Assembly: GCF_044324785.1 (NCBI RefSeq) | Contig: NZ_CP172129.1 | Strand: one strand, 5' to 3' | DNA: 64,000 nucleotides | Source: Escherichia coli | GTDB taxonomy: Bacteria; Pseudomonadota; Gammaproteobacteria; Enterobacterales; Enterobacteriaceae | Shown here: positions 2,325-5,300 of the stretch, piece after piece | How the letters are laid out: the number at the start of each line of letters is the position of its first letter | How positions within the stretch are numbered: position 1 is the stretch's first letter | Position numbers: made by a program

Positions 2325-5300
2325 TCAATCAACTGTACGGATTTGTGATGAGTGACTCAGCTCATGCGCGGGACGCTTGCATGCGGGCTTAATACCCTCG
2401 GGTTCGCACGTGCTGCATGAGCTTTGCCAGACCTACAGATTCAGTTTATGCCATCTTCAAGATATAAGGATACGCTTCGCCGCTGCGGTCACCCGGTCCC
2501 TCCTTCCCGTCTGCCGTGATTTTCCGGTCGTTTACCCGCTCAGATTTCGCGGTCTCACCCTCCAACTCCCGCCAGCCGTGTGTGTCAGGCTGCGGCTTCC
2601 CTTGCGCCCTTTGCATCCCCGCCTTATCGCCCGGCTTTTATGGAGGCACGGCACAGCCCGGTGTCGCGGAATATGTGAACAACGGAGGAAATCCCATGCA
2701 GTATGCGAAACCTGTCACTCTGAATGTTGAAGAGTGCGACCGTCTGTCTTTTCTGCCTTACCTGTTTGGCAACGATTTTCTGTATGCCGAAGCATATGTG
2801 TACGCGCTGGCGCAAAAAATGATGCCGGAATATCAGGGAGGCTTCTGGCACTTCATCCGCCTGCCGGACGGTGGCGGTTACATGATGCCGGATGGCGACC
2901 GTTTTCATCTGGTTAACGGTGAAAACTGGTTTGACCGCACGGTCAGTGCCGATGCCGCAGGCATCATTCTGACTTCCCTTGTGATTAACCGCCAGTTGTG
3001 GCTGTACCACGACAGCGGTAACGCAGGGCTGACACACCTGTACCGGATGCGTGATGCGCAGTTGTGGAGCCACATCGAATTTCACCCCGAATGTAACGCG
3101 ATTTACGCGGCGCTGGACTGATTAACGGACGGGGCGGCAATGCCGCCCCTGTAAAGGAGACGAGAACATGTACTGTTAAAGAAATTATCCGCGATGTACT
3201 GGATACAGACGTGCCGGACAGTGAATGCGTTTTTGCCGTGGTGCTGACCCGTGGGAATGTGCGCCATATGGCTCAGGACTGGAACCTGTCAGACGATGAG
3301 CTGGAAACCGTCATGCAGCGGCTGGACGATGCTTTTGTATATGGCGCATGTGACAGAGTTGTTTCCGATATTGTCAATGAACTGATGGAGGAAAAGCGCG
3401 TAAACCGCCTTGTAACAGTCCCTGCGGTGCTGCTGGAAAAAGTGATGGTGATGGCTGGTAGTGAAATTTATCGCCTCCATGCTGTCGGGAGCGAGAACGG
3501 GGGCGACGGTGACGCATTTGTCAGGGAAGAACGTGAGATTATGCGGGTGATGCGTCAGGCGCTGGACGGGGAGAACGGGTAATGAATATCAGCACGGAAA
3601 CCCGCGAAATTCTGCGTAATTACAAAACCGTGATTAATGCGCGGCGTCGTGAGATGGGGCAGAAACCGCTCACCACCGCGCAGATTGTTGATGAAATCTG
3701 CGATTTTGTGACGAATCAGCAGGCGGTTTTCCTCGGTGGTCACTATATCCTTCAGGGCAGCTGAAACAGGTGATACAGGGCAGGCGGTGGAGGCCGCCTG
3801 TCAGCCCGCGCGAACCCCCCTGGCAGGCTGACGCCTGCCGGAAGGGAAGCGGGCCACGCTGACGCGTCGCCCGTTACCCTTCCCGTTAGTGATGTGTCCG
3901 GAATGTTTTTTCTGATGTTATTTTTCTGTGGTTACCGTGTTTGTTATTGTTCTTCTTCTTTTTCCTCTTCCTCTTCTTTCCGTTCCTCTCCTGTTTATGG
4001 CTTTTCCGGGCGTCCCCCTGGCGGGGCGGGCTGTCGTGAACGGAGCCAGCGGAGCTGTCTCCGCCCTGGCGGGCTTCCATCCCTGACGCGAAACCATGGC
4101 TTGCAGCGACCGTTCCGGTCGCGCCGCCTCTGTCGCGCCGTGGCCTGCGCTCCCGGCATCCCGGCAAAAGGCGCCGGAATGTAAGGAGCAACGCCGTTTC
4201 GCAAACCGCGCTTCACGTCGTTGCGGCGGGTCCCTGCTCATTGCCTGCCAAGTGCCACACACCCGTATGAGTCCCTGTCGCCGGGGGCTGAGACAGCCAC
4301 AACCTGCCGCACTGACTGTCCAGGGTAAATGAACAGCCCACAAAATTTTTTACCCAGAACCCGGTAAAAAATTTTGCGTTCTGCCCAGGACAGGTGCGTC
4401 AGGCCGTGGCAGTGATGCCCCTTGCGGCGAAGGTTCTCAAACGGGTGAAGTTCATACCACAGGGAATACAGCAGCAGGTTCCCGCGAAACGTCAAAACCG
4501 CGGCTCCCGAAACTCAACGGGTGATGTTCTTTAAAAATCAGGATTTATTTCAGGCTCCGGCAATACGCATTTATTTGTTCTGTCAGTCATCCGGCTGGCA
4601 GGTAATGAGAACGCAGGAACAGAAGGAGGAAAACACCGGAAAGCGTCAGATGCAGATATGAAAAAAGCAGGTCAGGGACCTGCTTAATCCACGCCGTAGA
4701 AATCGCCGCAATCGATTTTCACGGCTTCACTAACCTGTGTCATAAGGAGTTTCATTTATGACAGTAAGTATTGTTTCACCTTCCGCAGCGGCTGTAAAGC
4801 CCCGCCGTCATCCCCGTTTCAGACGCGAAGACATCCCCGCGCCGGAAATTGACCCCGTGCTGAAAGCATTCGGGCGACACATAGCCCGGAGTTTTCACCG
4901 GGGACGTGGTGTACACATCCCCGCCATGAAAAACACGGCTTTCGGGCAGGTGCTCCGCACACTTGAACTGAAACGCGCTTTTAACTGATGAGGTGAGCCG
5001 CCCCGCGAGGGGCGGCAACAGACGGAAGGAGAACATTTTATGACATTAGCAGCAATCACCATGACCGCCCCAGAAGCCGCCAGCCCTGTGCAGATGTACC
5101 GCGCGACCTACTCACCGGATGACAACAAACTGCGCCTGTATGCTGCGTCACGTCTTGACCCGGAGACGTATAAAAAAGTGCATGATGCCGGTTTTCGCTG
5201 GGCACCAAAACAGGCGCTGTTTGTGGCTCCAGCCTGGACACCGGGCCGGGAAGACGTGCTCCTCTCACTTGCCGGAGAGATTGAGGATGAAGACAGCACG

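What the first reader, a model, noticed from the sequence alone, without database searches (positions are those of the whole stretch)
3128..3770. Best ribosome-binding site downstream of klcA is out of frame with the ORF it should serve
After klcA there is a GC hairpin (GGGGCGGC AAT GCCGCCCC, 3131..3149), then a strong SD (AAGGAGA) and ATG at 3168 that opens a 3-codon ORF (ATG TAC TGT TAA). The long ORF 3211..3582 is in the adjacent frame and has no ATG with an RBS; its first in-frame start is GTG 3211. A single-base indel between 3168 and 3178 would fuse the ATG to the long frame. Either the gene is a recent frameshift pseudogene, there is a sequencing error, or initiation is unconventional. 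The downstream 60-codon ORF is start/stop coupled (TAATG at 3580..3584).
Basis: seen in the sequence. Interest (0 to 1): 0.35.

Follow-up and report, generated by a model that had tools for sequence, protein, structure and literature searches.

The report
Repeat-slippage frameshift in plasmid gene yubJ
The ribosome-binding site and ATG are the real start of the plasmid gene yubJ (unknown function), knocked out of frame by loss of one copy of a 5-base tandem repeat (TGTAC); the lesion is real and recurs in about 9% of related plasmids, but it is an ordinary kind of frameshift.

Summary
After klcA (2696-3121) come a GC hairpin (3131-3149), the Shine-Dalgarno (SD) sequence AAGGAGA (3154-3160), and an ATG at 3168 that opens ATG TAC TGT TAA. 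The long ORF lies in the next frame, and the 60-codon ORF overlaps its stop as TAATG.

The cause is a 5-bp change, not a 1-bp indel. F, pO157 and IncI/IncK plasmids read ACA TGTAC TGTAC TGTT, which encodes MYCTVKE..., the start of YubJ (also YcjA, "DUF1380"). The window has lost one TGTAC unit.

It is not a sequencing error. The one-copy allele is in about 420-440 of about 4,650 matching records from complete E. coli genomes, including the ATCC 11775 plasmid. It sits on at least 5 flanking haplotypes. Alleles with 3 and 4 copies also exist. Only two copies keep the ATG in frame.

The N-terminus MYGTVxEI is conserved in relatives down to about 30% identity. No canonical start with an SD serves the shifted frame. 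NCBI's annotation pipeline (PGAP) "rescues" it with an ATT start at 3121.

Best reading: a recurrent slipped-strand frameshift that gives a null or strongly weakened yubJ allele. Residual expression, or an adaptive on/off switch, is not excluded. Interest is low to moderate.

The parts
2696..3121 (+). klcA (yubI-type antirestriction gene), the first gene of the operon; its stop is TGA 3119-3121
   Evidence: PF03230 match at 1.8e-26. Annotated 'antirestriction protein' WP_001198922.1 in identical records.
3131..3149 (+). Intercistronic GC hairpin (8-bp stem, 3-nt loop) with no T-run, so it is not an intrinsic terminator
   Evidence: Read directly. It folds in the MFE structure of 3110-3215 (-33.6 kcal/mol, z -2.8). 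The terminator scan does not call it. It is present in both n=1 and n=2 alleles, so it is not specific to the frameshift.
3154..3160 (+). Shine-Dalgarno AAGGAGA of yubJ
   Evidence: Conserved in all fetched homologues except the decayed p1493-3, which has AAGGCGA. It lies 8 nt upstream of the ATG.
3168..3179 (+). The ancestral yubJ start codon, now opening a 3-codon mini-ORF ATG TAC TGT TAA
   Evidence: In n=2 alleles the same ATG starts the annotated 139-140-aa protein.
3169..3176 (+). Residual repeat TGTAC+TGT (n=1). One TGTAC unit is missing relative to the in-frame TGTAC-TGTAC-TGT, and the deletion point is ambiguous within this tract
   Evidence: Alignment A1 and the copy-number table for 20 loci with n=1-4.
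3172..3582 (+). Body of yubJ/ycjA (labelled DUF1380) from codon 4 (Thr) to the stop TAA 3580-3582; intact, but out of frame with its ATG
   Evidence: Translation. It shares a 90% cluster with 139-aa n=2 proteins, and the F orthologue is named YUBJ_ECOLI. It differs from the n=2 allele of M7424 by 3 substitutions in 399 nt.
3121..3582 (+). The CDS as annotated by PGAP in identical RefSeq records (153 aa, ATT start overlapping the klcA stop, WP_042007484.1); probably an annotation rescue
   Evidence: ATT 3121 and CTG 3118 have no SD.
3211..3213 (+). First canonical in-frame start (GTG), with no SD. It would give a 123-aa product lacking residues 1-17, including helix 1
   Evidence: The 123-aa form is what older annotations call. 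The model places a helix at residues 5-14.
3582..3764 (+). 60-codon downstream ORF (the yubK position), overlapping the stop as TAATG at 3580-3584, with its own GGAG at 3570-3573
   Evidence: Annotated in all relatives and found on at least 1000 contigs. No Pfam or NCBIfam match.

Best explanation
The region is the klcA-yubJ-(60-aa ORF) operon of the leading region of an F-type E. coli plasmid. The SD and ATG at 3168 are the genuine yubJ start. Codons 1-5 of yubJ (ATG TAC TGT ACT GTT) contain a tandem pentanucleotide repeat, TGTAC-TGTAC-TGT. In this plasmid lineage one unit was lost by slipped-strand mispairing. The ATG therefore now reads ATG TAC TGT TAA, and the intact 136-codon body lies in the +1 frame.

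Shown: the deletion, its reality, its recurrence, and copy numbers of 1 to 4.

Inferred: ribosomes recruited by the SD translate only the 3-codon mini-ORF. Little or no full-length YubJ is then made, so the allele is null or strongly weakened. The 60-aa ORF must rely on its own SD.
For: - Alignment with F, pO157, IncI1, IncK and other plasmids shows a clean 5-bp gap inside TGTACTGTACTGT.
- In complete E. coli genomes, about 421-442 records carry n=1 and about 4,200 carry n=2. n=3 occurs in about 4 records. n=4 occurs in pJNE21-009_1 and CP057486/CP057492.
- The identical allele is in p1658/97, in roughly 150-kb F-type plasmids, and in the ATCC 11775 plasmid.
- n=1 sits on at least 5 flanking haplotypes. 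Several of these have n=2 counterparts with the same flanking SNPs.
- dN/dS is about 0.25-0.3 among alleles and the same among n=1 pairs. The window differs from the n=2 allele of M7424 by 3 of 399 nt, so the deletions are recent relative to allele divergence.
- The family N-terminus MYGTVxEI and Met1 are conserved down to about 30% identity. Residues 5-14 form the first helix of the model, which has pLDDT 80.
- The shifted frame has no ATG/GTG/TTG with an SD; it has only ATT, ATC, CTG and GTG 3211.
- Two n=1 loci show further decay: p1493-3 has a mutated SD, a broken hairpin and a second frameshift, and pTW10690 has a second frameshift that PGAP flags as a pseudogene.
Against: - The ORF body is fully intact in the window and in most n=1 lineages. 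This is also what continued selection would produce.
- The allele has persisted in very successful plasmid lineages.
- The frame upstream is open from 3097, so a klcA-coupled start at CTG 3118 or ATT 3121, as PGAP annotates, is physically possible. Reinitiation after the mini-ORF at ATT 3184 or GTG 3211 is also possible.
- There are no expression data for any n=1 allele.
- The two decayed examples were picked because they looked odd, so the sampling is biased.
Confidence: 0.8

Rival explanations
1. The shifted ORF is still expressed through unconventional initiation. One route is termination-reinitiation at the klcA stop (the CTGA/TGATT overlap, CTG 3118 or ATT 3121), giving a 153-154-aa N-terminally extended protein. 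The other is reinitiation after the 3-codon mini-ORF at ATT 3184, CTG 3199 or GTG 3211, giving a truncated protein. In either case n=1 would be a functional, lower-expression allele.
For: - The frame is open from 3097 through to 3582.
- PGAP annotates the ATT start in hundreds of records.
- The ORF is intact in most n=1 lineages, and dN/dS among n=1 pairs is 0.24.
- n=1 persists in widespread plasmids.
Against: - None of these starts has an SD.
- The upstream 48 nt are the same in n=2 alleles, where that frame is irrelevant, so its openness carries no signal.
- The substitutions p1493-3 carries in that stretch are all nonsynonymous in the extension frame.
- The family has an invariant Met1 and a conserved MYGTV N-terminus, so both extension and truncation alter a conserved element.
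- The low dN/dS is explained equally well by recent, independent deletions.
Confidence: 0.13
2. The (TGTAC)n tract is an adaptive contingency switch. Slippage turns yubJ on (n=2, 5) and off (n=1, 3, 4), so that plasmid populations hedge between expressing and silencing an early-entry gene.
For: - Four copy-number states occur in nature.
- n=2 and n=3 occur on identical upstream flanks (0 differences in about 470 nt from klcA to the SD) in O6:H16 plasmids.
- n=1 recurs on several haplotypes.
- The repeat sits at the start codon of a gene in the klcA operon, which is expressed early in transconjugants (PMC12672017).
Against: - The tract is very short (1-4 units), whereas known contingency loci use longer tracts.
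- About 90% of loci are n=2, and most n=1 records belong to a few clonal plasmid lineages.
- No n=5 in-frame allele was seen.
- No within-strain heterogeneity data exist.
- Return from n=1 to n=2 would need a duplication templated by only 3 nt of repeat.
Confidence: 0.06
3. Sequencing or assembly error in this record.
For: None beyond the frame anomaly itself.
Against: - There are 312 PLSDB records at 99% identity or more over the 701-nt query, which contains the deletion, and about 420-440 RefSeq E. coli records with n=1.
- The allele occurs on different backbones and in different projects.
- A 5-bp unit loss is not a typical platform error.
Confidence: 0.01
4. Programmed ribosomal frameshifting (+1 at the mini-ORF stop, or -1 from klcA stimulated by the hairpin) joins the frames.
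For: A strong SD lies upstream of a very short ORF that ends in a stop, and a stable hairpin lies 10 nt after the klcA stop.
Against: - There is no slippery sequence. tRNA-Cys on UGU, tRNA-Tyr on UAC and the initiator on AUG cannot re-pair in the +1 frame.
- No X XXY YYZ heptamer precedes the hairpin (sequence read).
- The hairpin and SD are identical in n=2 alleles, where no shift is needed.
Confidence: 0.01

Closest known systems
YubJ of plasmid F (UniProt YUBJ_ECOLI; YcjA in other nomenclatures; labelled DUF1380)
   Same: Same locus (klcA/yubI, then yubJ, then a 60-63-aa ORF), the same SD and ATG, and about 82% amino-acid identity over the body.
   Different: F has two TGTAC units and an in-frame ATG (140 aa). 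The window has one unit and the ATG is out of frame.
Slipped-strand frameshift hot spots at short tandem repeats (for example the CTGG x3 hot spot of lacI; from general knowledge)
   Same: A few copies of a 4-5-bp unit gain or lose whole units, giving recurrent identical frameshifts. Both gains (n=3, 4) and losses (n=1) are seen here.
   Different: Here the evidence is natural polymorphism across plasmids, not measured mutation spectra. No rates are known.
Simple-sequence contingency loci (phase-variable genes of Haemophilus, Neisseria and Campylobacter; from general knowledge)
   Same: A repeat in the 5' coding region whose unit number sets the reading frame, with several copy-number alleles in nature.
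   Different: The tract is far shorter (1-4 units), one state dominates (about 90%), and there is no evidence of high-frequency reversible switching.
Leading-region early-expressed operons of F and IncI1 plasmids (klcA operon with a class 2 ssDNA promoter; PMC12672017)
   Same: Same gene neighbourhood. The 5' hairpin arms are recognisable in the window.
   Different: In the window lineage the two arms are 2,575 nt apart instead of 145 nt, because of a 2.4-kb insertion that includes ISEc32.

Membership tests
YubJ / DUF1380 (PF07128) protein family | Significant sequence homology to YubJ and other family members | tested here: met
   The window's product is in the same 90% cluster as 139-aa 'DUF1380 family' proteins. 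It is 82% identical to F YubJ. Full-length relatives at 30-63% identity were found.
YubJ / DUF1380 (PF07128) protein family | Pfam PF07128 match above the gathering score (26 bits) | tested here: not met
   The window ORF (153-aa form) has no hit at E<=0.01. The intact pAV54 orthologue scores 20.9 bits, E 4e-4, below the cut-off. Some close relatives carry precomputed PF07128.18 hits. The F-type branch is therefore a marginal member of the Pfam model although it is clearly homologous.
YubJ / DUF1380 (PF07128) protein family | Conserved N-terminus MY(G/C)TVxEI starting at Met1 | tested here: not met
   The ATG is out of frame. The in-frame sequence begins ...TVKEII with no Met, Tyr or Cys encoded in frame behind a start.
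Frameshift pseudogene | Reading frame disrupted relative to intact orthologues | tested here: met
   A 5-bp deletion relative to more than 4,000 n=2 loci.
Frameshift pseudogene | Signs of relaxed constraint (secondary lesions, dN/dS near 1) on the disrupted lineage | tested here: inconclusive
   The window lineage is too young to tell: it differs from the n=2 allele by 3 substitutions. Two other n=1 loci have second frameshifts, but they were not randomly sampled.
Simple-sequence contingency (phase-variable) locus | Tandem repeat in the 5' coding region whose copy number sets the frame, and which is polymorphic in nature | tested here: met
   n=1, 2, 3 and 4 were observed.
Simple-sequence contingency (phase-variable) locus | High-frequency, reversible switching within a clone | not testable with these tools
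   This needs fluctuation tests or deep amplicon sequencing. The tract length (no more than 4 units) argues against high rates.
Programmed ribosomal frameshift site | A slippery sequence allowing tRNA re-pairing in the new frame, plus a stimulator | tested here: not met
   No slippery heptamer or re-pairing codon at 3110-3180 (sequence inspected). The hairpin and SD are the same in alleles that are already in frame.
Translationally coupled gene pair (stop/start overlap) | Overlapping stop and start codons between yubJ and the 60-aa ORF | tested here: met
   TAATG at 3580-3584. Other alleles use an ATGA-type 4-nt overlap.

The most novel reading that the evidence does not exclude
The (TGTAC)n tract at the yubJ start codon is a genuine on/off contingency switch for an early-expressed leading-region gene. 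Slippage, perhaps favoured during single-strand transfer and complementary-strand synthesis, would generate plasmid subpopulations with and without YubJ. The off state would be selected in hosts where YubJ is costly or is sensed by a defence system.
Probability: 0.06. Interest if true: 0.6.

Novelty: new member of a known kind. Interest (0 to 1): 0.27.

Why it matters
Scientifically the point is small. It shows that yubJ, a conserved but uncharacterised gene of the early-expressed klcA operon, is dispensable for very successful F-type plasmid lineages. It also shows that yubJ carries a built-in slippage-prone repeat at its start codon, with natural alleles of 1 to 4 units.

This provides ready-made natural knock-outs for anyone testing whether YubJ has an anti-defence or establishment role.

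Practically, it flags an annotation problem. Hundreds of RefSeq records carry a 153-aa (ATT start) or 163-aa "DUF1380" protein, or CTG-start versions for n=3 and n=4. These are probably artefacts of rescuing a frameshifted gene.

Tried and rejected
- **TGT versus TGC in klcA.** In my 20-locus sample, the synonymous TGT in klcA (which makes a TAA at 3094 in the yubJ frame) appeared only with n=1. This suggested selection against a 163-aa product started from an ATG inside klcA. It is rejected: TGT with n=2 exists at 100% identity in at least 30 records.
- **Link between the frameshift and loss of the klcA promoter hairpin.** Rejected as a general rule. pVirR1, NDM6 and pO145 (all n=1) keep the 145-nt hairpin spacing.
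- **Function of YubJ.** Nothing useful came back. NCBIfam gave only noise. There was no PDB sequence match. Foldseek against PDB gave no match with E<=0.001 for an all-alpha model of pLDDT 80.
- **Literature.** 'DUF1380', 'yubJ' and 'ycjA' returned only incidental mentions or unrelated hits (author initials, a Canadian statute).
- **Hairpin 3131-3149 as a terminator.** Rejected. It has no T-run and the scan does not call it.
- **Programmed frameshifting.** Rejected on sequence grounds.
- **Copy-number bands with the n=4 query.** These were partly confounded by split alignments, so only the single-piece 91-nt hits are used.

Full report
**Observation**

- klcA occupies 2696-3121, with a PF03230 match at 1.8e-26.
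- The hairpin GGGGCGGC-AAT-GCCGCCCC is at 3131-3149.
- The Shine-Dalgarno (SD) sequence AAGGAGA is at 3154-3160.
- The ATG at 3168 opens ATG TAC TGT TAA (3168-3179).
- The long open frame is the adjacent frame. It is open from 3097 to the stop at 3580-3582, and its first ATG/GTG/TTG is GTG 3211, which has no SD.
- TAATG at 3580-3584 links it to a 60-codon ORF (3582-3764) that also has its own GGAG 8 nt upstream.

**Where the window comes from**

The window is the leading region of an F-type E. coli plasmid.
- The 701 bases around the finding are 100% identical to p1658/97 (NC_004998.1).
- The first 20 kb are 100% identical to several plasmids of about 148-152 kb and near-identical to others of 134-155 kb.
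- The first 20 kb also contain psiA, traJ and traK.

**What happened**

I aligned the junction with F, pO157, IncI1, IncK and other plasmids.
- The intact sequence is ACA-TGTAC-TGTAC-TGTT, that is ATG TAC TGT ACT GTT AAA, encoding MYCTVK.
- The window lacks exactly one TGTAC unit.
- The SD and ATG are therefore the genuine start of the gene. The lesion is a 5-bp repeat-unit deletion, not a 1-bp indel.
- The F orthologue is UniProt YUBJ_ECOLI, called YcjA in some records, and annotation pipelines label it 'DUF1380 family protein'.

**It is real and common**

A 70-nt junction query was run against all RefSeq complete E. coli genomes.
- About 421-442 records have the one-copy form and about 4,200 have the two-copy form, so n=1 makes up about 9%.
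- PLSDB gives about 420 one-copy records among its best 5,000.
- Carriers include the plasmid of the type strain ATCC 11775, pO145, NDM-associated IncF plasmids and the bovine pVirR1.
- Sequencing error is excluded.

**The tract is copy-number polymorphic**

Synthetic queries found alleles with more copies.
- Three-copy alleles occur in about 4 records, for example NZ_CP024237.1 and pB2C_151.
- Four-copy alleles occur in pJNE21-009_1 and in CP057486/CP057492.
- Only n=2 (and hypothetically n=5) keeps the ATG in frame.

NCBI's annotation pipeline (PGAP) annotates a full-length protein in most cases by choosing rare starts.
- For the window type it uses ATT at 3121, overlapping the klcA stop, giving 153 aa (WP_042007484.1).
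- Where a synonymous TGC replaces the window's TGT, it uses an ATG inside klcA, giving 163 aa.
- For n=3 and n=4 it uses CTG.
- Older annotations call the 123-aa GTG-start product instead.

**Recurrence**

- One-copy alleles sit on at least five flanking haplotypes and on both major yubJ allele types.
- They are often closer to two-copy alleles than to each other, both upstream and downstream.
- Exact two-copy counterparts exist for the TGT-GCA flank.
- The three-copy alleles have upstream flanks (about 470 nt from klcA to the SD) identical to a two-copy O6:H16 plasmid.
- The simplest reading is repeated slipped-strand events. Recombination in this mosaic region may also contribute.

**Is the gene still functional?**

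Purifying selection acts on the gene in general: dN/dS is about 0.28 among two-copy alleles. One-copy pairs give the same value, 0.24. The window differs from the two-copy allele of M7424 by only 3 of 399 nt. The deletions are therefore young relative to allele divergence, and the intact ORF says little either way.

Arguments for loss of function:
- The family N-terminus MYGTVxEI, with an invariant Met1, is conserved down to about 30% identity.
- An AlphaFold model (pLDDT 80, all-alpha) places the first helix at residues 5-14, which a GTG 3211 start would remove.
- No in-frame start has an SD.
- No slippery site exists for programmed frameshifting.
- Two one-copy loci have decayed further. p1493-3 has a mutated SD, a broken hairpin and a second frameshift. 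pTW10690 has a second frameshift that PGAP flags. I chose both because they looked odd, so they do not give a rate.

Arguments that keep residual expression open:
- The frame upstream is open from 3097, so a klcA-coupled start at CTG 3118 or ATT 3121 is physically possible.
- Reinitiation after the mini-ORF at ATT 3184 or GTG 3211 is also possible.

I put null or strongly weakened at about 0.8, functional through unconventional initiation at about 0.13, and an adaptive switch at about 0.06.

**Context**

- The klcA operon of F and IncI1 plasmids is transcribed early in transconjugants from a proposed class 2 single-strand promoter hairpin 5' of klcA (PMC12672017).
- In EDL933, klcA and the DUF1380 gene are induced together by ciprofloxacin at the RNA level (PMC11125564).
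- The function of YubJ is unknown. There was no PDB sequence match, no PDB fold match, and no informative family hit.

**Side finding**

- In F, the 413-nt region upstream of klcA folds as single-stranded DNA into a stem-loop of about 240 nt (-111 kcal/mol, z -6.6).
- In the window the two arms lie at 1-36 and 2612-2651. They are 2,575 nt apart rather than 145 nt.
- The cause is a 2.43-kb insertion (39-2465) carrying a CxxC 'mobilome' gene, a small ORF and ISEc32.
- Other one-copy lineages keep the intact hairpin. The two lesions are therefore independent, but they coincide in this lineage.

**Verdict**

This is a real, recurrent repeat-slippage frameshift of yubJ. It is a new instance of a well-known kind of lesion. 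Its value is mainly as a natural knock-out and as an annotation warning.

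Noticed in passing
window 1-36 and 2612-2651, with the insertion at 39-2465: The large hairpin upstream of klcA is split. In F its arms are 145 nt apart and it fits the published 'class 2 ssDNA promoter'. Here the arms are 2,575 nt apart because of a ~2.43-kb insertion with AAG at both junctions. The insertion carries a 'mobilome CxxCx(11)CxxC' gene, a small ORF and ISEc32. Early single-strand-driven expression of the klcA operon may be impaired in this lineage.
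   Followed up: partly
window 1323-2294 (minus strand): A 323-aa IS110-family transposase, annotated ISEc32 in identical records. Its end abuts the loop side of the klcA hairpin. IS110-type elements are known to target structured or repeat DNA, but the exact IS ends were not mapped.
   Followed up: no
window 3121-3582, and RefSeq WP_042007484.1 / WP_223368613.1 / WP_001463949.1: PGAP annotates frameshifted yubJ alleles as full-length proteins with ATT, internal-klcA ATG or CTG starts, depending on copy number and on a synonymous klcA SNP. These are probably systematic annotation artefacts present in hundreds of records.
   Followed up: yes
window 3765-4760: A ~1-kb GC-rich non-coding stretch before the DUF3560/methyltransferase operon. 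It has many short and long-range inverted repeats (for example 3840-3859/3864-3883, 4334-4354/4363-4383, 4260-4276/4431-4447) and a pyrimidine-rich tract at 3900-4000. It is a candidate for the single-strand promoter (class 3) region described upstream of the M.EcoGIX-type operon.
   Followed up: no
L022 3427-3981 (plasmid F): F carries a second 'DUF1380 family protein' (WP_001358893.1, 184 aa) two genes upstream of klcA. A paralogue may therefore buffer loss of yubJ. Whether the window's plasmid has it was not checked.
   Followed up: no
window 3168-3179: In the one-copy allele a strong SD now drives a 3-codon minigene (Met-Tyr-Cys-stop). Such minigenes can promote peptidyl-tRNA drop-off in sensitised hosts. 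This is purely a remark and was not tested.
   Followed up: no
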